IMG/VR virus record: IMGVR_UViG_3300035666_000002
Strand: one strand, 5' to 3'
Length of the DNA stretch: 64,000 nucleotides
Source: a virus
Part shown: one piece after another, positions 28,346-53,417 of the stretch
Numbering within the stretch: position 1 is the stretch's first letter
Layout: each line of letters opens with the position of its first letter
Position numbers and translations under genes: made by a program
The notes under the pieces: generated by a model
What the model saw: the letters and a program-made list of their open reading frames with translations, nothing else
Told to the model about the DNA's origin: nothing
Databases searched by the model: none

Positions 28346-28802
28346 GATAGTATAATGTGTCCTCTTTGATAATGTCAAGTTTGAATCCTTCGAGAAGTAC
28401 CTTTTTAGCCACAGCCTCGGATTCTTTATAGGTTGCTGCATGGATGGGCCTCACTTTCGCTTTTGAATCACAGTACCAACTAAACTGACAGATTAAATTA
28501 TTATACACTAAATTTCGTTCATATACAACTGCACAAATATCTTTTGGAAATTTACCTGATTTAGTTCTATTGATGGTTACTTGAGCAACAGCTACTTTGC
28601 CTTCAAAAGGTTCTGTTCCTGCTTCATAATATATGTTTTTCGTTAGACAGTCAAGTTCTTTTTCGCGTTGAGCCATTGTGACATATGGCGGATGTTTACT
28701 TTCTTTAACCTCTTCAAATTTTTGATCGACTAGTATATGAAAGTGTTGCACGAAAAAGTATCCAAGAATGCCTATGAAAACAAGTTTCATAAAATGCATC
28801 AA
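28269..28802 (-). CDS. cell wall hydrolase (SleB/Hydrolase_2 family) with N-terminal membrane anchor
   Basis: CLTKNIYYEAGTEPFEGKVAVAQVTINR..ICAVVY..CQFSWYC..YYHADYINPGW..IGKHIFY. Confidence 0.9.
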   Translation of the reverse strand: MMHFMKLVFIGILGYFFVQHFHILVDQKFEEVKESKHPPYVTMAQREKELDCLTKNIYYEAGTEPFEGKVAVAQVTINRTKSGKFPKDICAVVYERNLVYNNLICQFSWYCDSKAKVRPIHAATYKESEAVAKKVLLEGFKLDIIKEDTLYYHADYINPGWKRQRVAKIGKHIFYKG

Positions 28803-28816
28803 TGATCTCCTTTGAA

Positions 28817-29102
28817 TGGTGGGTTATTCTGTTACGAGGAAACCCACCGAAACCCTAGGCTGTGTTTAGGCAGCCAATGCGAAACGTTCTTCGTTTGCGT
28901 TTACTTCGATTTACTTTTAGCGACTCTCTGTGTCGAACCGTCCATCTTCCTACTTATTGCCCCGTCGAAACCAGGTCAGGCCCATCAGAAGCACACAAAG
29001 ACCTTTTGGCTACTGCCGATACCAGTCGATATGCACTTCTGGTGGACCTGGGCGGAATCGAACCGCCGTCCGAGACACTTTTCAGTCAACTTCATACGAT
29101 CA
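28817..29102 (-). ncRNA. ssrA: circularly permuted (two-piece) tmRNA; tag ANEERFALAA
   Basis: T-arm and acceptor 3' strand GGCGGTTCGATTCCGCCCAGGTCCACCA ends at 29040, upstream of the 5' end GGGCCTGACCTGGTTTCGAC starting at 28983; G3.U70 pair; tag ORF 28898-28866; outer limits approximate. Confidence 0.92.
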
Positions 29103-29144
29103 TGTGGTATTATATAGCAATAAAGATTTAAGGTGAGGCAATCT

Positions 29145-30356
29145 TTACTCTACAAAATATTTTTTACTATGCAATAAAGGTAAAGTAGAAAATTCGAATC
29201 TTTTTTGTTGATTAAAATTGTAAGAAGTTGTCTTAATCAAACTAGAAAAATTTTGTATATATTTTAAAGCACCATTATTCCATATTTTAACATACTTGTC
29301 ATCCAACTTATCGACCCACCAACAATCAATATTTTTTTTACCATTAAGACGTAGTTTGGGGGTTACTATATTTGGAGACCAATGTGGATATATTGTTTTG
29401 TGATATAGATCATATCTCAAATTTTTTCTCAAATGTAATTTAGATTCACAGGTAAAAGAATTTCTGAATTCTGTATTATCTAACTTATTTGAATTTTCGA
29501 AGAGTGACACATCATTTTGTTTCTCATATTTTTCCACTGTTTTTTTGAGAAGGTGAATTTGCTTTATGATTAATTCGGGGAACTTTGGAGTTTGATAAAA
29601 AAATTCTATTATATTCGTTGGATTTAACTCGATACAATTATGCATACTTGTTGTTATGTCGCATGCCATAATATCATTGAATACTGTATAATATTTTTTA
29701 TCGTTTAATTTAAGCAAAGGTTTATCGACACCCATAACCACACCCACTTTTTTGCCGGATGATATCATATCGAATATATGAGGAATATATTTAACCCATA
29801 TTCCTCTCATCATCCAGAATGATGGAAATGTACCAGATGAAAACAATAACTCATAATAGTCTTTAGAATATAAATCATCCCATATTTTTTTAGTAATTTC
29901 TATTTCATCTACAATCGTTACCTTAGTTTCCATGTTTTCTTTTAAAAGTCTTTCTAAAATAGGTTTAACATTATAGACGTAATCGGCGTTATGGATTGTT
30001 CCTTGCACAACAGATGTAGAATTGTAAGTGTTGAAATTTATGATTTCATCTAACTTTATTTGATTTCTCAAAAAAGTTTGTAAAATATTTGTGCTATCTG
30101 GTCCTCCACTATATTGAAGGATGACATAATCATATTCATCTCTTATTTGCTGTGCTCTTCTTCTATAAAACTCCTCTATAGAAACTTCAGGTTCCGGCTC
30201 TCGCGTCCAATCATATCTATCAAAAACATGTTCATTAAATTTATACTCAACTCTAGCATTTTTAAGCAAAGCTTCGTTGTATGCTAAATTTTTAGAAAAG
30301 AATATTTTTCCACCAACTGAGTAATATCCAAAATCGTTATTCAGAGATAATGTCAT
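29145..30356 (-). CDS. PP-loop (adenine nucleotide alpha-hydrolase-like) protein
   Basis: LQYSGGPDS motif; paralogous to 33240..34322. Confidence 0.7.
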   Translation of the reverse strand: MTLSLNNDFGYYSVGGKIFFSKNLAYNEALLKNARVEYKFNEHVFDRYDWTREPEPEVSIEEFYRRRAQQIRDEYDYVILQYSGGPDSTNILQTFLRNQIKLDEIINFNTYNSTSVVQGTIHNADYVYNVKPILERLLKENMETKVTIVDEIEITKKIWDDLYSKDYYELLFSSGTFPSFWMMRGIWVKYIPHIFDMISSGKKVGVVMGVDKPLLKLNDKKYYTVFNDIMACDITTSMHNCIELNPTNIIEFFYQTPKFPELIIKQIHLLKKTVEKYEKQNDVSLFENSNKLDNTEFRNSFTCESKLHLRKNLRYDLYHKTIYPHWSPNIVTPKLRLNGKKNIDCWWVDKLDDKYVKIWNNGALKYIQNFSSLIKTTSYNFNQQKRFEFSTLPLLHSKKYFVE

Positions 30357-48652: not shown

Positions 48653-49123
48653 TTATGCTGCCAGACTCTTCAACCTATCTGCTGCATAAGAAGCAGCAAA
48701 TGCATTTGGTTTTACAAGTGGCACAACATTACACATACCTTTTATATAGCCAATCGCTTCATTGATTACGATATTTGAATTATACTCTTCATTTGGATTA
48801 ATGTCAAGATGTACTTCGATTTCGTTGTCAATCATGGCTGCAAGTTCAAGATACATTTCAGCAACTTTGTAAACCTCATTCATTAGACGCATTCGAGGTT
48901 TATTTCTTGCTTGATCATAGTCGCGCTCGCGCGTGATCTGACCAAAAATTTTACAACCATGTTTACTATCCATATGTACAACAATGGCTATAATGTAGTC
49001 GGCATGCCAAACACCATTGAGTTTTACTTTCTCAGAATCGCAACCAAGATATACTTTTGTATTTGGTCCACAACTTTCAATAAATGTTTTTACTTCATTT
49101 AGATCAATTTTTTTGTTGTACAT
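48653..49123 (-). CDS. RNase H-like YkuK (DUF458) family protein
   Basis: VYLGCDS, RLMNEVYK, EVHLDIN, VKPNAFAASYAAD. Confidence 0.8.
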   Translation of the reverse strand: MYNKKIDLNEVKTFIESCGPNTKVYLGCDSEKVKLNGVWHADYIIAIVVHMDSKHGCKIFGQITRERDYDQARNKPRMRLMNEVYKVAEMYLELAAMIDNEIEVHLDINPNEEYNSNIVINEAIGYIKGMCNVVPLVKPNAFAASYAADRLKSLAA

Positions 49124-49220: not shown

Positions 49221-49295
49221 TGGTACCTCGTAATGGTAACGATCCATTCTCTGCGCCTTATCAAGACGCTGCTAATCCATCTCAGCTAACGAGGC
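49221..49295 (-). tRNA. tRNA-Ile(GAU)
   Basis: Loop TTGATAA; atypical T-loop ATCGTTA. Confidence 0.85.
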
Positions 49296-49841: not shown

Positions 49842-50591
49842 CTAATCCATTGAACTAAGGACCGTTTTAATTTCTTCAAGATTTTTATATCGAATAATTT
49901 CTCCGCTCATAGAATTAATACTCTCTTTAATTAGTTGACTGTTATTATACCACAAATTCACAAGAGGCACAACATTTATTTTCACAAAAAACAAACTAGT
50001 GCGGCAATCATTTAATGGTAATGTTGTTTGTCTCTCATGCCTGAAATACAAATTTTCTAGTGTCGCAGGGACATCTTTATATTGCTCTTTGATTTCTGGA
50101 TGATTACTTAATTCTGGAACTCTTGTAATTGTCCAAACATGTCTCTCAAAACTTCCTAGAACTGGATCGGCTATTGTTTGTGCAAGCTTATCACTCACCT
50201 TTCGTAGATGCTCACCATCAGCAACAGGATGATGTATTTGCATTAATGATTTATTCAGTGCTTTAAATGGAATCCATGAACTAGGAAAACAAAAACAAAT
50301 TGCAGATAAAATTCCATCATTCATGATTGCAACATCTTCTTCAAAATTCAAAGCAAAGTCTATGATATCACCCGTAATCGTTTTACCTGTCATAGATTCC
50401 GCTCTTCGAATCAATTGATTGGTTATTGCTTTGATATTCATCCCATACAAATCATAACCAAACATTGCAAGTTGTTTCGTTTTCTCAGAGAGATATTTGA
50501 CACTTGGATTAGGATTAAAAACAAAACCTGTATTCTTTTGCATTTTAGGTCTTGTTGTATAAGGAACTTGTATGATCTCTTCAATATTCAT
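49842..50591 (-). CDS. DUF3445 / heme-dependent oxidative N-demethylase-like protein
   Basis: EEDVAIM..CFCFPSSW..KSLMQIHHPV..RHVWTI..FRHERQT..LFFVK; start moved to ATG 50591 (GGAG RBS) because the longer ORF runs into a tRNA. Confidence 0.75.
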   Translation of the reverse strand: MNIEEIIQVPYTTRPKMQKNTGFVFNPNPSVKYLSEKTKQLAMFGYDLYGMNIKAITNQLIRRAESMTGKTITGDIIDFALNFEEDVAIMNDGILSAICFCFPSSWIPFKALNKSLMQIHHPVADGEHLRKVSDKLAQTIADPVLGSFERHVWTITRVPELSNHPEIKEQYKDVPATLENLYFRHERQTTLPLNDCRTSLFFVKINVVPLVNLWYNNSQLIKESINSMSGEIIRYKNLEEIKTVLSSMD

Positions 50592-50600
50592 AATATCTCC

Positions 50601-50675
50601 TGGTGGTTCAAAGTGGTAACGATCCACTCTCCTCGGCTTATGATACCGGTACGCATCCATCTACGTCATTGAACC
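50601..50675 (-). tRNA. tRNA(CAU), probably Met
   Basis: Loop ATCATAA; atypical T-loop ATCGTTA; CCA. Confidence 0.75.
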
Positions 50676-50679
50676 TAAT

Positions 50680-50753
50680 TGGTAGCGGGACCTGGACTCG
50701 AACCAAGAACTGAAGCTTATGAGACTTCTGAGATACCCTTTCTCTATCCCGCA
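50680..50753 (-). tRNA. tRNA-Met(CAU), initiator-like 1:72 mismatch
   Basis: Loop CTCATAA; U1xU72 mismatch, but lacks the three anticodon-stem GC pairs. Confidence 0.8.
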
Positions 50754-50756
50754 AAC

Positions 50757-50832
50757 TGGTCTCCGACACTGGACTCGAACCAGCACCTTCTACGCCCCAA
50801 ACGTAGTGGACTACCTATTATCCCAATCGGAG
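50757..50832 (-). tRNA. tRNA-Pro(UGG)
   Basis: Loop TTTGGGG; C1-G72, A73. Confidence 0.9.
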
Positions 50833-50840
50833 TAAAACTT

Positions 50841-50914
50841 TGGTGCCCCCACCCGGAATCGAACTGGGAATTGATGCTTACAAGGCAACTGTTATACCAT
50901 TTAACTATAGGGGC
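50841..50914 (-). tRNA. tRNA-Thr(UGU)
   Basis: Loop CTTGTAA; CCA. Confidence 0.92.
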
Positions 50915-50919
50915 AAAAC

Positions 50920-50994
50920 TGGTGGACCGCAAGAGAATCGAACTCTTACCTCCGCCGTGCAAAGGCGGCGTGCTCCCATTATCACTAGCAGCCC
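50920..50994 (-). tRNA. tRNA-Ala(UGC)
   Basis: Loop TTTGCAC; G3.U70. Confidence 0.92.
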
Positions 50995-51012
50995 GAAAAA
51001 TTTATTTAGTAA

Positions 51013-51137
51013 CCATATTGAAACACACTTGAGGTAACCGTGACAAGCGGGGTCTTTTTACACCTCTCTACCTGCATACTCACCAGATAGTCATTTCTGT
51101 TCTGAGGACGCTTTCGATTTAGTATGCTTCAATATGG
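51013..51137 (-). ncRNA. stem-bounded ncRNA candidate A
   Basis: Closed by inverted repeat CCATATTGAAGCATACT / AGTGTGTTTCAATATGG. Confidence 0.55.
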
Positions 51138-51211
51138 TGCCCCCTCTCAGATTCGAACTGAGACTCTACGGCTTCTAAGACCGTTCTCTCTACCAATTGG
51201 AGTAAGAGGGC
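51135..51211 (-). tRNA. tRNA-Leu(UAG), short variable loop
   Basis: Loop CTTAGAA; only 5-nt variable region; A73-CCA. Confidence 0.85.
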
Positions 51212-51213
51212 TT

Positions 51214-51289
51214 TGGCTCCGGAGGTTGGGATCGAACCAACGACATTCTGATTAACAGTCAGACGCAACTACCGCTGTGCTACTCCGGA
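51214..51289 (-). tRNA. tRNA-Asn(GUU)
   Basis: Loop CTGTTAA; G73. Confidence 0.95.
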
Positions 51290-51295
51290 TCATTC

Positions 51296-51370
51296 TGGCG
51301 GTCCCAACGGGACTCGAACCCGTTCCTGCGCCGTGACAGGGCGCTATACTCGCCGATATACTATGGAACC
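51296..51370 (-). tRNA. tRNA-Asp(GUC)
   Basis: Loop CTGTCAC; G73. Confidence 0.95.
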
Positions 51371-51376
51371 TAAATT

Positions 51377-51463
51377 TGGTGGATGCGGATGGATTCGAAC
51401 CACCAGCGTTTCTTATGTCACAGATTTACAGTCTGCTGCCGTCAACCATTTGGCTACGCATCC
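51377..51463 (-). tRNA. tRNA-Tyr(GUA)
   Basis: Loop CTGTAAA; long variable arm. Confidence 0.95.
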
Positions 51464-51468
51464 ATATT

Positions 51469-51542
51469 TGGTACGGGCACCGAGAATCGAACTCGGATTT
51501 ACTGGTTAAAAGCCAGTTACTTTACCACTAAGTTATACCCGC
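51469..51542 (-). tRNA. tRNA-Lys(UUU)
   Basis: Loop CTTTTAA; CCA. Confidence 0.92.
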
Positions 51543-51548
51543 AAATTT

Positions 51549-51624
51549 TGGTGGGCCCAGTAGGTTTCGAACCTACGACCAATGAATTATGAGTTCACTG
51601 CTCTGACCTCTGAGCTATAGGCCC
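51549..51624 (-). tRNA. tRNA-Ile2(CAU, lysidine type)
   Basis: GGGCCTATAGCTCAG..CTCATAA; resembles bacterial ileX-type tRNAs. Confidence 0.85.
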
Positions 51625-51721
51625 ATATTGAAACACACTACGGTCTATACATGCTTTCAATGAGAGGCATGCGGTGTACCAGCCCTGATCTTTTTACAGA
51701 TTCTAATGTGTTTCAATATGG
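51623..51721 (-). ncRNA. stem-bounded ncRNA candidate B
   Basis: Closed by CCATATTGAAACACATTA / TAGTGTGTTTCAATATGG. Confidence 0.55.
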
Positions 51722-51842
51722 TCAAACAGGGCAGGGGATGGACGCATCTTCCGTTTCAAACGATAGTCCGGACTATCTACGCGGTCGAAGTTGGTCTTTA
51801 GTCTGCAACCTCACTAAGTCGTTTTGGTTACTTCCTGTTCGA
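51719..51842 (-). ncRNA. about 124-nt structured RNA candidate with acceptor-like stem and 3' CCA
   Basis: 5' TCGAACAGG pairs with CCTGTTTGA-CCA; internal hairpin GATAGTCCGGACTATC; no cloverleaf. Confidence 0.5.
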
Positions 51843-51844
51843 TA

Positions 51845-51949
51845 CCATATTGAAGCACACTGACTGCATTGAAACAGCCCACCCTGCCACATGGCAGAGC
51901 TGAGTCCACTCTCGGGGCGTGGCCTACGCCCTAGTGTGCTTCAATATGG
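51845..51949 (-). ncRNA. stem-bounded ncRNA candidate C (GC-rich multibranch)
   Basis: Perfect 17-bp closing repeat CCATATTGAAGCACACT / AGTGTGCTTCAATATGG; three internal hairpins. Confidence 0.6.
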
Positions 51950-52021
51950 TACACCGTACGAGAATCGAACTCGTCTTTCCAGCGTGAAAGGCTAGCGTCC
52001 TAACCGATAGACGAACGGTGC
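51947..52021 (-). tRNA. tRNA-Glu(UUC)
   Basis: Loop CTTTCAC; CCA. Confidence 0.92.
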
Positions 52022-52033
52022 ATCGAACAACAA

Positions 52034-52046
52034 TTTTTAAAGAGCA
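52034..52046 (-). promoter_or_regulatory. boxA antitermination element
   Basis: TGCTCTTTAAAAA between the internal promoter and tRNA-Glu; rrn boxA consensus is TGCTCTTTAACA. Confidence 0.75.
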
Positions 52047-52067
52047 TTTGCATCATCAACAGAATCT

Positions 52068-52125
52068 ATTATACAGATTCCACACACTATGTCAACAACT
52101 TTTTTGTTGTTGTTTTTTTACAACT
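52068..52125 (-). promoter_or_regulatory. internal sigma70-like promoter with palindrome in the tRNA array
   Basis: TTGACA-16-TATAAT; TGTTG-N8-CAACT at 52108-52125. Confidence 0.85.
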
Positions 52126-52202
52126 GGAGTACAGAGTCGGATTCGAACCGACGGCTTTAGAGTTTTGCAGACTCTTGCATTGGACCACTCTGCCATCTGT
52201 AC
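52125..52202 (-). tRNA. tRNA-Cys(GCA)
   Basis: Loop CTGCAAA; U73-CCA. Confidence 0.92.
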
Positions 52203-52209
52203 ATGAATT

Positions 52210-52304
52210 TGGTAGTAGGTAAGAGATTCGAACTCTTCCGTTTCAGCCCATCTGACCGATCTCCCGAGCTTATAAGACTCAGCCGCACACCAGTGCTACC
52301 TACC
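52210..52304 (-). tRNA. atypical tRNA with UAU anticodon (nominally Ile), long variable arm
   Basis: Acceptor GGTAGGT/ACCTACT, loop CTTATAA, about 27-nt variable region, 4-nt D-loop. Confidence 0.75.
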
Positions 52305-52306
52305 GT

Positions 52307-52396
52307 TGGCGGAGTGACTGGGACTCGAACCCAGAACCCGGCGTTAACCGAGCGACGGATTAGCAATCCGCTCTAATACCATTATAGGACCACTCC
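52307..52396 (-). tRNA. tRNA-Ser(GCU)
   Basis: Loop TTGCTAA; long variable arm; G73. Confidence 0.92.
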
Positions 52397-52404
52397 ATTA
52401 AATT

Positions 52405-52492
52405 TGGCGGAAGCGGTGAGATTCGAACTCACGGACCCTTTCGGACCTCCAGTTTTCAAGACTGGCGCCATAGACCACTCGACCACACTTCC
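52405..52492 (-). tRNA. tRNA-Ser(UGA)
   Basis: Loop CTTGAAA; long variable arm; G73. Confidence 0.95.
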
Positions 52493-52499
52493 TAAATTT

Positions 52500-52573
52500 T
52501 GGCAGGGGTACTTGGAATCGAACCAAGAATACTTGAATCAAAATCGAGTGTGATGCCATTTCACCATACCCCA
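52500..52573 (-). tRNA. tRNA-Gln(UUG)
   Basis: Loop TTTTGAT; G73-CCA. Confidence 0.9.
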
Positions 52574-52586
52574 ATAGAAAACTAAA

Positions 52587-52599
52587 TTTTTAAAGAACA
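52587..52599 (-). promoter_or_regulatory. boxA-like antitermination element
   Basis: TGTTCTTTAAAAA immediately before the first tRNA. Confidence 0.7.
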
Positions 52600-52608
52600 A
52601 CTACTAAT

Positions 52609-52819: not shown

Positions 52820-53115
52820 GGGTTTAAATCAATTTTATGTAAACTAGATTTTCGAACTGTTCCGTCTTCATCTCGATAACACACATATCCTTCTTCATCA
52901 ACAAAAACAGAACCATTCCAAAAATATTTTCGAGTCTTATATTTTGCGATTGCTTCTTCAGAGTATTCGGTTACATCGTGCTTAATTGAACCCAACCAAT
53001 CGTCCCAGTTTGGATCACACTCTTCTGCAATTTGCAAAAGATGATCCTCATTCTCAGCTTCAATTACATGAACATTACGAAAAGTGGAAATTGTTTCAAC
53101 GATATACTTTTTCAT
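52816..53115 (-). CDS. hypothetical protein
   Basis: ATGA-coupled ORF; KYIVETISTFR N-terminus. Confidence 0.7.
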   Translation of the reverse strand: MKKYIVETISTFRNVHVIEAENEDHLLQIAEECDPNWDDWLGSIKHDVTEYSEEAIAKYKTRKYFWNGSVFVDEEGYVCYRDEDGTVRKSSLHKIDLNP

Positions 53116-53417
53116 TTTGCTTGACCCAGTGTAAATTTAACTTCTTTAATCGAGTCCCAACGGAAAGAACGCCATCCTTTTGCTTCAATATCGAACACTG
53201 CAAGAGACTCTGTAGGTTTAGTACGACCAGAGTTTTTGGGTGCTTGATCGACAGGAATATCACCTTCATACAAGGTACAATTCATTACACGTTCAGTACC
53301 ATCTTGTTTCGTGAAAGTGACAGTCACAGATTGTTCGCAAAGGACACCAATCAACCAATCCCTAGCTTTTTGATCAGCGAAAGTGTTTGTATCAACATTA
53401 TCAATCATTTTCATCAC
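53112..53417 (-). CDS. Sm-like/SH3 (WYL_2-type) domain protein
   Basis: VTFTKQDGTERVMNCT..VFDIEAKGWRSFRWDSI. Confidence 0.8.
   Translation of the reverse strand: MMKMIDNVDTNTFADQKARDWLIGVLCEQSVTVTFTKQDGTERVMNCTLYEGDIPVDQAPKNSGRTKPTESLAVFDIEAKGWRSFRWDSIKEVKFTLGQAK

What the first reader, a model, noticed from the sequence alone, without database searches (positions are those of the whole stretch)
51013..51949. Three different RNA cargoes held in the same CCA-anchored stem, echoed in the tmRNA spacer
Seen: elements at 51013-51137, 51623-51721 and 51845-51949 are each closed by CCATATTGAA(A/G)CA(C/T)A ... TGTG(C/T)TTCAATATGG (about 17 bp with G.U variation). The opening CCA is the 3' end of the upstream RNA. 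Interiors differ: C has three GC-rich hairpins; A and B share TGTAAAAAGA. The tmRNA intervening segment (28984-29039) has a related frame, CCA-GAAGTGCAT...GTGTGCTTC-TGA-TGG. Inference: a reusable cassette that releases small structured RNAs during tRNA maturation (e.g. decoys for defence or RNA-binding proteins), or a small mobile element targeting CCA ends.
Basis: partly seen in the sequence, partly recalled or inferred. Interest (0 to 1): 0.75.

Follow-up and report, generated by a model that had tools for sequence, protein, structure and literature searches.

The report
RNA cassettes in phage tRNA arrays
Three hairpin RNAs between the tRNA genes of an uncultured freshwater phage share one almost constant 17-19-bp stem that starts on the CCA end of the preceding RNA, yet each encloses a different, separately conserved small folded RNA. 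They belong to a large, phage-only family of exchangeable cassettes that I found in no paper or Rfam family, and what the enclosed RNAs do is unknown.

Summary
On the minus strand, which is the tRNA sense strand, the elements at 51137-51013, 51721-51623 and 51949-51845 are each closed by CCAUAUUGAARCAYAYU paired with its complement. The opening CCA is the 3' end of tRNA-Leu, of an unannotated 123-nt RNA, and of tRNA-Glu.

It occurred in one of 185,579 cellular genomes, on a mis-binned phage fragment. In total there are 221 unique elements carrying 119 interior ("cargo") families.

- **RNA-level selection.** The stem pairs as RNA on the tRNA strand: 116 G.U against 1 A.C. Divergent copies keep pairing through compensated changes.
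- **Cargo structure.** All three window cargos covary, with 6, 3 and 3 compensated pairs.
- **Exchange.** Cargos are swapped between slots and between close relatives. They also occur in the intervening segment of related phages' two-piece tmRNAs.

My best reading is excisable RNA cassettes resembling rRNA intervening sequences. A host double-strand RNase, probably RNase III, would cut the stem and release the cargo; this step is inferred, not shown. No Rfam family or paper matched. Earlier agents of this scan noted the same family on other DNA.

The parts
51013..51137 (-). Cassette 1 (125 nt). A 17-bp stem starts on the CCA of tRNA-Leu(UAG). The cargo is a two-domain RNA.
   Evidence: Fold -41.1 kcal/mol, z -4.7. 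There are 15 unique homologs; 7 pairs show compensated change (6 of them in the cargo), matched by 0 of 500 shuffles.
51623..51721 (-). Cassette 2 (99 nt). An 18-bp stem starts on the CCA of the 123-nt RNA and ends on G1G2 of tRNA-Met.
   Evidence: Fold z -5.7. There are 6 homologs and 3 compensated pairs in the cargo hairpin.
51845..51949 (-). Cassette 3 (105 nt). A 17-19-bp stem starts on the CCA of tRNA-Glu. The cargo has four hairpins, the last a T-arm-like hairpin next to the 3' arm.
   Evidence: Fold -59.3 kcal/mol, z -7.5. In the homologs L166 and L238, 3 compensated pairs fall in 3 different hairpins, and every interior substitution preserves pairing. The layout is shared with other T-arm cargos.
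51722..51844 (-). Unannotated conserved structured RNA ('X'), ending in an acceptor-like helix plus ACCA. It is always preceded by a cassette.
   Evidence: Found in 17 further viral loci. Seven pairs show compensated change. No Rfam match.
51947..52021 (-). tRNA-Glu(UUC); its CCA (51949-51947) opens cassette 3.
   Evidence: ARAGORN and Rfam.
51135..51211 (-). tRNA-Leu(UAG); its CCA (51137-51135) opens cassette 1.
   Evidence: ARAGORN and Rfam.
51549..51624 (-). tRNA-Met(CAU); its G1G2 are the last two bases of cassette 2.
52068..52095 (-). Sigma-70-type promoter (TTGACA, 16 nt, TATAAT; 12 of 12) upstream of tRNA-Glu. It is the likely start of the transcript that carries cassettes 3 and 2, X and the following tRNAs.
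   Evidence: This is a consensus match only.
28984..29039 (-). Intervening segment of the permuted (two-piece) tmRNA gene. It forms a 12-bp CCA-anchored hairpin whose 3' arm is the canonical GUGUGCUUC.
   Evidence: Rfam RF01850 and RF04321; fold z -4.05. The tmRNA spacers of relatives L007 and L112 carry the canonical upper stem (GAARCAYAYU with its complement); L120 has a one-base variant of it and carries a cargo also found in tRNA-array cassettes.

Best explanation
The three elements are members of a large, phage-restricted family of stem-closed RNA cassettes. The cassettes sit in tRNA operons and, in relatives, in the intervening segment of the two-piece tmRNA gene.

They are transcribed with the tRNAs. 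A 17-21-bp AU-rich duplex runs from C74-C75-A76 of the preceding RNA to a terminal UGG(U). It brackets a small RNA (about 30-120 nt) that is conserved and folded in its own right.

The duplex most likely works like the terminal stem of a 23S rRNA intervening sequence. A double-strand-specific endoribonuclease of the host, most probably RNase III, cuts both strands. RNase P then trims the downstream tRNA, and 3' exonucleases trim the upstream RNA back to CCA. The cargo is released as a short stem-capped RNA.

The shared arms also let cassettes be exchanged between slots and between co-infecting phages, so the phage population carries hundreds of different cargos.

- **Shown:** the stem, its selection as RNA, its family, cargo covariation, and exchange between slots.
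- **Inferred:** co-transcription, the cut, the enzyme, release of the cargo, and any cargo function.
For: **A large family confined to phage tRNA arrays.**
- It occurs in one of 185,579 species' genomes, on a 1.5-kb fragment with 9 tRNAs.
- In complete carrier genomes, paired arms lie only in the tRNA region.
- 45 of 92 elements start exactly on the CCA of an ARAGORN-called tRNA, covering 11 isotypes.

**Pairing is selected on the tRNA-sense RNA.**
- At the variable stem positions there are 116 G.U or U.G pairs against 1 A.C.
- Divergent copies change both arms together, for example TTTGAG, TTCAA and GCGCA variants and wholly different AU-rich stems.

**Length fits a double-strand RNase substrate.** Stems are 17-21 bp in 80 of 82 elements. 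A further pair between the discriminator base and the base after GG is present in 65 of 82. That is about two helical turns.

**The stem serves the cargo, not the neighbouring tRNAs.** Most tRNA junctions in the same arrays are 1-8 nt and carry no hairpin.

**Cargos are conserved structures.**
- Compensated pairs: 6 in the 51013-51137 cargo (plus one in the stem; 0 of 500 shuffles reach the total), 3 in the 51623-51721 family, 3 in the 51845-51949 family.
- The same cargo occurs inside different stems.

**The tmRNA link.** The intervening segment of a two-piece tmRNA must be removed for the RNA to work (established for Caulobacter; stated in PMC9004378). In L007 and L112 that segment has the canonical upper stem; in L120 it has a one-base variant of the stem and a cargo also found in tRNA-array cassettes.

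**Exchange.** Between tRNA-Glu and tRNA-Met the window has cassette, X, cassette, while the close relative L022 has one unrelated cassette. One cargo follows at least 6 different upstream RNAs.

**Host rather than phage RNase III.** Three complete carrier genomes encode no RNase III domain, so a host enzyme would be used.

Against: - There are no RNA data, so neither the cut nor the accumulation of any cargo is shown.
- RNase III does not need a particular sequence. The near-invariance of CCAUAUUGAA across many phages is therefore not explained by it. It needs either frequent recombination between copies or a sequence-specific partner.
- The tmRNA-spacer stems are only about 12 bp, which is short for RNase III.
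- The host is unknown.
- Two cultured relatives with tRNA arrays, a two-piece tmRNA and the same in-array DUF458 gene have no such stems. The stems are therefore dispensable for array processing.
Confidence: 0.55

Rival explanations
1. A selfish element resembling an rRNA intervening sequence or a MITE. On this reading the inverted-repeat cassettes spread in tRNA operons because host RNA processing removes them harmlessly, and the cargo does nothing for the phage.
For: - The arms are terminal inverted repeats, and TA lies outside TTGAA...TTCAA, as with TA target duplications.
- Cassettes are present or absent, and differ in slot, between close relatives.
- Two cassettes lie in tandem in L022, the second with its own CCA and no upstream RNA.
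- A 34-nt hairpin without cargo sits on the same CCAUAU...AUAUGG base in L024.
- IVS elements are described as selfish (PMC4990558).
Against: - Carrier genomes hold only 1-4 copies, and near-identical copies within one genome are rare, with one pair in L107.
- There are 119 cargo families for one stem, unlike a MITE family.
- Cargo helices keep pairing through compensated changes, which a passenger without function would not need.
- The wobble asymmetry shows selection on the RNA.
- No Y1 transposase is encoded in the complete carriers.
- Empty sites are not CCATATGG.
Confidence: 0.2
2. A protein-binding scaffold resembling a Y RNA. The constant stem would be the handle for a specific phage or host protein, and the variable cargo, often tRNA-like, would be the module that recruits or blocks a second factor.
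For: - The sequence of the stem, not only its pairing, is almost invariant over positions 1-10 in 221 elements.
- The T-loop word GTTCGA is in 10 of 64 non-redundant cargos against 0.94 expected.
- T-arms sit next to the 3' arm, as in a tRNA.
- A conserved RNase H-like (DUF458) gene lies in the arrays of 34 of 120 loci, and a WYL_2 gene in 10 of 120.
Against: - No TROVE (Ro60) gene in 3 complete carriers.
- The Rfam YrlA model does not match the cassettes.
- Stems with quite different sequences carry the same cargos, which argues against a strict sequence-specific handle.
- DUF458 is absent from one complete carrier and present in cultured phages without stems.
Confidence: 0.12
3. Plain processing spacers or insulators. 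Only the hairpin would matter, for example to separate folding units or to block exonucleases, and the interior would be filler.
For: The elements lie exactly between a CCA and the next 5' end, often with no base to spare. The tmRNA spacer is by definition discarded.
Against: - Interiors are conserved across phages at 82-95% identity and covary.
- The same interior recurs in different stems and slots.
- Most junctions manage with 1-8 nt.
Confidence: 0.06
4. A DNA-level element. The palindromic arms would form single-strand or cruciform DNA hairpins used by a recombinase or nuclease for site-specific cassette exchange, as with integron attC sites.
For: - The size range and architecture (conserved inverted ends, variable centre of 30-120 nt) recall attC sites.
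- Cassette exchange is observed.
- G.T wobble is also tolerated in folded single-strand DNA.
- HNH endonuclease genes lie in the arrays.
Against: - The strand on which pairing is preserved is always the tRNA-sense strand, as expected for RNA.
- The stem includes the functional CCA of the upstream RNA and G1G2 of the downstream tRNA.
- No Y1 transposase was found; integrases were not searched.
- The element also sits in the tmRNA spacer, where RNA excision is obligatory.
Confidence: 0.05

Closest known systems
Intervening sequences (IVS) of bacterial 23S rRNA genes, excised by RNase III (e.g. Salmonella, Leptospira, Coxiella; PMC4990558)
   Same: - Terminal inverted repeats form a long stem that closes a variable interior.
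- The element is inserted in a stable-RNA gene or operon.
- It is removed at the RNA level without religation.
- Distribution is sporadic, with signs of horizontal transfer.
   Different: - The location here is between tRNAs and in the tmRNA spacer, not in rRNA helices 25 or 45.
- The stem is 17-21 bp and starts on a functional CCA.
- One stem carries over a hundred small, structured, conserved cargos.
- The family is phage-only.
- Excision has not been shown.
Intervening segment of circularly permuted (two-piece) tmRNA genes (Rfam RF01850, RF04321; Keiler et al. 2000 as cited in PMC9004378)
   Same: It lies between a 3' CCA and the next mature 5' end and is discarded during maturation. In this phage lineage it carries the same or a near-identical upper stem and, in L120, a cargo also found in tRNA-array cassettes.
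   Different: The tmRNA spacers lack the lower UAUU/AAUA part of the stem. tmRNA spacers in general are not known to be a cassette family shared with tRNA operons.
Phage T4 small stable RNAs, species 1 and 2 (rnaC, rnaD), in the T4 tRNA gene cluster (from my own knowledge)
   Same: They are non-tRNA structured RNAs encoded among phage tRNA genes, made from the same precursors, with unknown function.
   Different: T4 has two fixed RNAs. It has no shared closing stem, no cassette exchange and no anchoring of a stem on the CCA. Sequence relatedness was not tested because no reference sequence was on hand.
RNase III processing sites of phage T7 early RNA and the rRNA precursor stalks (from my own knowledge)
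   Same: A double-stranded stem of about two turns separates functional RNAs in a polycistronic transcript.
   Different: Those stems do not carry exchangeable, conserved cargos and are not sequence-conserved across many genomes.
Bacterial and phage Y RNAs (YrlA, Rfam RF02553)
   Same: A long terminal stem is combined with a tRNA-like module containing a T-arm. This applies to the cargo of 51845-51949 and to about one cargo in six.
   Different: There is no Rfam match to the cassettes and no Ro60/TROVE gene in carrier genomes. Most cargos are not tRNA-like.
HDV-like 'theta' ribozymes downstream of phage tRNAs
   Same: It is an RNA element immediately 3' of phage tRNAs that is thought to free the tRNA 3' end.
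   Different: The cassettes show no ribozyme fold and match no Rfam ribozyme family. They are closed by a simple long stem.

Membership tests
rRNA-type intervening sequence / RNase III processing stalk | Terminal inverted repeats form a continuous double-stranded stem of about two helical turns | tested here: met
   Stems are 17-21 bp in 80 of 82 elements, plus a pair between the discriminator base and the following base in 65 of 82. The window stems are 17-19 bp.
rRNA-type intervening sequence / RNase III processing stalk | Excision from the precursor by RNase III, with cuts in the stem | not testable with these tools
   No RNA data or enzyme assay were available. The phages themselves encode no RNase III.
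rRNA-type intervening sequence / RNase III processing stalk | Located in helix 25 or 45 of 23S rRNA | tested here: not met
   The elements lie between tRNA genes and in the tmRNA spacer.
Any Rfam 15 family | Match at the family's gathering score | tested here: not met
   In the window only tRNA and tmRNA reach threshold, and nothing overlaps the cassettes or X at gathering score. In 11 cassette-rich loci the 150 best rows are tRNAs plus one group I intron.
Y RNA (YrlA) | Match to RF02553 together with a Ro60/TROVE partner gene | tested here: not met
   The only weak YrlA hit (26 bits, against a cut-off of 69) lies on tRNAs. TROVE is absent from 3 complete carriers.
MITE / non-autonomous transposon | Many near-identical copies per genome, with target-site duplications | tested here: not met
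   Carrier genomes hold 1-4 copies, nearly all with different interiors. The flanking TA is part of the palindrome, so a duplication cannot be told apart.
MITE / non-autonomous transposon | A cognate transposase available | tested here: inconclusive
   The Y1 (IS200/IS605) transposase is absent from carriers. DDE transposases and integrases were not searched.
tRNA | Cloverleaf recognised by ARAGORN or the Rfam tRNA model | tested here: not met
   Neither tool calls any cassette or X as a tRNA. A T-arm-like hairpin alone is present in 51845-51949.
Two-piece tmRNA intervening segment | Lies between the CCA of the acceptor piece and the 5' end of the coding piece of a permuted tmRNA gene | tested here: met
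   This holds for 29039-28984 only. The three cassettes of the finding lie in the tRNA operon and share only the stem and cargo pool with such segments.

The most novel reading that the evidence does not exclude
The constant stem is a universal socket for expression and release. Through it a population of freshwater phages would share a pool of several hundred small structured RNAs. Some of these are tRNA mimics without an anticodon. They would act on host tRNA-directed defences, tRNA-modifying enzymes or RNA-processing enzymes, and they would be swapped between phages in an arms race. That would make the system an RNA counterpart of the gene cassettes of integrons.
Probability: 0.2. Interest if true: 0.85.

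Novelty: new variant of a known kind. Interest (0 to 1): 0.65.

Why it matters
If the cargos are functional, this family exposes over a hundred uncatalogued structured small RNAs of phages. There are 119 families in a sample where 73 were seen only once. They come with a ready-made rule for finding them, namely CCA followed by an AU-rich 17-21-bp stem. The family also suggests a natural way of expressing arbitrary small RNAs from a tRNA operon. It links tRNA-operon spacers with the poorly understood maturation of two-piece tmRNA. And it offers a testable case of RNA cassette exchange between viruses. If the cargos turn out to be passengers, the family is still the first tRNA-operon counterpart of rRNA intervening sequences.

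Tried and rejected
- **Rfam.** Gathering and E-value scans of the window, and a gathering scan of 11 cassette-rich loci, gave no family for the cassettes or X.
- **Cultured phages.**
  - Megablast of 50600-52600 hit tRNAs only.
  - Blastn of 51623-51949 gave no match.
  - The closest cultured relatives by in-array gene content are Stenotrophomonas phage DLP6 and Synechococcus phage BUCT-ZZ01. Neither has a CCA-anchored stem of 10 bp or more. No cultured carrier was found.
- **Phage-encoded partner.**
  - RNase III (PF00636, PF14622), Ro60/TROVE and the Y1 transposase are absent from 3 complete carrier genomes.
  - The DUF458/YkuK RNase H-like gene inside the arrays looked promising, being in 34 of 120 loci.
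  - But it is missing from one complete carrier and present in stem-less cultured phages. I rejected it as an obligate partner.
  - Its model (pLDDT 82.8) gives only weak RNase H-superfamily fold matches: EndoV, NurA, RNase H1 and Argonaute PIWI, at E 2e-3 to 2e-2.
- **The shared TGTAAAAAGA.** A-rich hexamers of that kind are not enriched across cargos.
- **A 15-nt cargo pattern (GAGAGTGGACTCAGC).** It returned chance hits apart from one homolog, L166.
- **Metagenome contigs as a proxy for RNA ends.** All listed contigs were 1 kb or longer, so nothing could be learned about processing sites.
- **Literature.** Seven full-text searches found no description of the family.
Full report
**1. What is in the window**

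The region is a phage tRNA array on the minus strand, with 26 tRNAs plus a permuted tmRNA. Read on that strand, the order is:
- a perfect sigma-70-type promoter at 52095-52068;
- tRNA-Glu;
- a cassette (51949-51845);
- a 123-nt unannotated RNA, here called X (51844-51722);
- a cassette (51721-51623);
- tRNA-Met, Lys, Tyr, Asp, Asn and Leu(UAG);
- a cassette (51137-51013);
- 18 nt, then tRNA-Ala.

Each cassette opens with CCAUAUUGAARCAYAYU and closes with the complementary arm ending in UGG. The six arms are exact matches to CCATATTGAARCAYA. With up to 2 mismatches there are nine matches against 0.96 expected, and no shuffle of 100 reached nine.

The folds are far more stable than shuffles, with z-scores of -4.7, -5.7 and -7.5. 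The opening CCA is the encoded 3' end of tRNA-Leu, of X and of tRNA-Glu. The closing GG of the middle cassette is G1G2 of tRNA-Met. The only adjustment is that it has to be read on the minus strand.

**2. It is a large family, confined to phages**

About 110 chance singletons are expected for such a pattern by my own arithmetic. But 89 properly paired elements of 63-211 nt were found in these loci (92 with the window's three), nearly all with many tRNAs within 3 kb. Of the 92 elements, 45 start exactly on the CCA of an ARAGORN-called tRNA, covering 11 isotypes. The rest follow non-tRNA RNAs such as X, or another cassette.

A paired-arm pattern, which cannot arise by chance, gave these results:
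- again at least 120 stretches in JGI metagenomes;
- only one hit in one genome each of 185,579 prokaryote species. That hit is a 1.5-kb contig with nine tRNAs, binned into a Ca. Planktophila MAG, and is evidently a phage fragment.

In three complete carrier genomes (168, 172 and 400 kb) the paired arms lie only in the tRNA region. No cultured phage carries them:
- blastn of the cassette-X-cassette block found nothing in 50,697 phage records;
- the nearest cultured relatives by in-array gene content, DLP6 and BUCT-ZZ01, have tRNA arrays and two-piece tmRNAs but no CCA-anchored stem.

**3. The stem is selected as RNA on the tRNA strand**

I used 82 unique elements oriented by their neighbouring tRNAs. 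The three variable stem positions give G.U or U.G 116 times and A.C once. The G/U-rich 3' arm tolerates any transition in the 5' arm. The rarer C or A in the 3' arm occurs almost only opposite G or U: 12 G-C against 1 A-C, and 5 U-A against 0 C-A. On the opposite strand these pairs would be mismatches.

More divergent copies change both arms together. Among 1,366 CCA-ending tRNAs in the loci, 91 are followed by a CCA-anchored stem of 10 bp or more. Among them are about 20 quite different AU-rich stems of 14-21 bp.

Stem length is tightly distributed, at 17-21 bp in 80 of 82 elements. In 65 of 82 the discriminator base pairs with the base after GG, which is U in 68 of 82. The duplex is thus about two helical turns.

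**4. The cargos are real RNAs, not filler**

Pooling all loci gives 221 unique canonical-stem elements. They fall into 119 cargo families, 73 of them seen once. The repertoire is therefore far from sampled. All three window cargos have homologs that covary.

| Cassette | Unique sequences | Compensated pairs |
|---|---|---|
| 51013-51137 | 15 | 7, of which 6 in the cargo; 0 of 500 shuffles reach this; slid controls give 1 or fewer |
| 51623-51721 | 6 | 3, in one hairpin |
| 51845-51949 | 3 | 3, in three different hairpins; every interior substitution is pair-preserving |

The same cargo also occurs inside stems of different sequence. Examples are L023 against L051, and L085 and L120 against L107.

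The most enriched 6-mer in cargos is the T-loop word GTTCGA, present in 10 of 64 against 0.94 expected. In those cargos the T-arm lies directly before the 3' arm, as it lies before the acceptor strand in a tRNA. The cargo of 51845-51949 has this layout: an extra hairpin, a D-arm-like hairpin with AGUGGA, a long hairpin with a tetraloop instead of an anticodon loop, and a T-arm-like hairpin. Neither ARAGORN nor the Rfam tRNA model accepts it.

**5. Cassettes are exchanged**

L022 is a close relative whose in-array DUF458 protein is 95.5% identical. It has the same tRNA order as the window, with these differences:
- between tRNA-Glu and tRNA-Met it holds one unrelated 135-nt cassette where the window has cassette-X-cassette;
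- after tRNA-Leu it has two tandem cassettes, the second homologous to the window's 51013-51137 cassette;
- between tRNA-Tyr and tRNA-Asp it has a 90-nt insert where the window has 6 nt.

The cargo of 51013-51137 follows at least six different upstream RNAs in different phages. tRNA-Arg(ACG) is followed by three unrelated cargos in L024, L085 and L119. The block of cassette, 123-nt gap and cassette is conserved in L238.

**6. The tmRNA link**

The window's tmRNA gene is permuted (RF01850 at 133.8 bits; RF04321 at 126.8 bits). Its 56-nt intervening segment (29039-28984) lies between the CCA of the acceptor piece and the 5' end of the coding piece. It folds into a 12-bp hairpin that starts on the CA of the CCA (z -4.05). 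Its 3' arm carries the canonical GUGUGCUUC, and its 5' arm has diverged.

In related contigs the tmRNA spacer carries the canonical upper stem directly after CCA (L007, L112). In L120 the stem is a one-base variant, and the spacer encloses the same cargo family as tRNA-array cassettes of L107 and L085.

Two-piece tmRNAs are transcribed as one precursor and split (PMC9004378, citing Keiler et al. 2000). In this position the hairpin is therefore necessarily an excised piece. This is the best available argument that the tRNA-array cassettes are excised as well.

**7. How it most likely works**

Other junctions in the same arrays are 1-8 nt and need no hairpin. The stem therefore serves the cargo rather than the neighbouring tRNAs.

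A stable blunt hairpin directly on the CCA cannot be removed by 3' exonucleases alone, so an endonucleolytic cut is needed. A continuous duplex of about two turns is what RNase III cuts. [quoted passage not shown] The carriers encode no RNase III of their own, so a host enzyme would act.

After the cut, the AU-rich lower stem would melt. Exonucleases would trim back to CCA, and RNase P would cut the next tRNA. These steps are inferred from established E. coli tRNA maturation, not shown here.

Two things remain unexplained by RNase III alone: the strong conservation of the stem sequence and the short tmRNA stems. Frequent recombination through the arms, or a sequence-specific partner, would account for the first.

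**8. Candidates for a partner**

A 156-aa RNase H-like protein (PF04308, DUF458/YkuK, E 2e-17) is encoded inside the array at 49123-48653. It is also present in 34 of the 120 motif-ascertained loci.
- It has invariant acidic residues.
- Its model is confident (pLDDT 82.8). The best fold matches are weak and lie in the RNase H superfamily: EndoV, NurA, RNase H1 and Argonaute PIWI.
- It is absent from one complete carrier.
- It is present in tRNA-rich cultured phages without stems, including KVP40, DLP6 and BUCT-ZZ01.

It therefore goes with large tRNA arrays rather than with the cassettes.

**9. Prior knowledge**

Rfam 15 has no family for the cassettes or for X. Seven full-text searches found no description. 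Earlier agents of this same scan noted the same stem family on other DNA. I re-derived the main points independently here. Their note that some such RNAs are abundant in river RNA libraries could not be tested.

**10. Verdict**

This is a real, widespread, phage-only family of stem-closed RNA cassettes that I found in no paper or Rfam family.
- The stem, its RNA-level selection, the cargo structures and the exchange are shown.
- Excision by RNase III and any cargo function are inferred.

Noticed in passing
window 51722-51844 (-): A conserved 123-nt structured RNA ('X') with a covarying terminal helix followed by ACCA. It occurs in 17 further viral loci, is always preceded by a cassette, and has no Rfam match. 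The continuous 10-nt 3' strand of its terminal helices plus NCCA resembles an RNase P minihelix substrate.
   Followed up: yes
window 48653-49123 (-): A 156-aa RNase H-like protein (PF04308, DUF458/YkuK) is encoded inside the tRNA array. The same gene lies in the arrays of 34 of 120 related loci and in tRNA-rich cultured phages (KVP40 group, DLP6, BUCT-ZZ01, roseophages). It may be a tRNA-array-associated nuclease of unknown role.
   Followed up: partly
window 28775-29150 (-): The phage encodes a permuted two-piece tmRNA (tag ANEERFALAA; Rfam beta_tmRNA at 133.8 bits). Cultured DLP6 and BUCT-ZZ01 also carry permuted tmRNAs next to their tRNA arrays.
   Followed up: partly
window 52210-52304 (-): ARAGORN calls a 95-nt tRNA-Ile(UAU) with a long extra arm. 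The Rfam tRNA model does not reach threshold, and tRNA-Sec scores 28 bits (cut-off 47). The same oversized gene is present in L022, L068 and L108 and is annotated as a 92-nt tRNA-Ile-TAT in phage DLP6.
   Followed up: no
window 50604-50675 (-): A tRNA-like stretch (Rfam tRNA at 36 bits) that ARAGORN does not call. It is 71% similar to tRNA-Ile(GAU) at 49221-49295 and overlaps the start of the ORF 49842-50660.
   Followed up: no
window 49842-50660 (-): A 272-aa ORF inside the tRNA array matches PF11927 (alpha-subunit-like domain of haem-dependent oxidative N-demethylase, E 1e-21). This is an odd function for this place.
   Followed up: no
window 53112-53417 (-): A 101-aa WYL_2 (Sm-like SH3 barrel) protein lies just upstream of the array. 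Homologs lie near the arrays of 10 of 120 related loci.
   Followed up: partly
L024, tRNA-Lys to tRNA-Asp junction (34 nt): A hairpin without cargo sits on the same base (CCAUAUAAAAGUA ... UAUUUUUAUAUGG). At the same slot L119 holds two full cassettes and a 78-nt RNA. It looks like an empty or decayed frame.
   Followed up: partly
L031 13185-13378 (-): A group I intron match (Rfam RF00028, 53.4 bits) lies inside a related phage tRNA array, 69 nt from an orphan cassette arm.
   Followed up: no
L171 (CAZQNP010000058.1, 1478 nt): A contig binned into a Ca. Planktophila MAG is a phage-type array of nine tRNAs with one cassette. It is probably mis-binned and is at best a weak hint to the host.
   Followed up: partly
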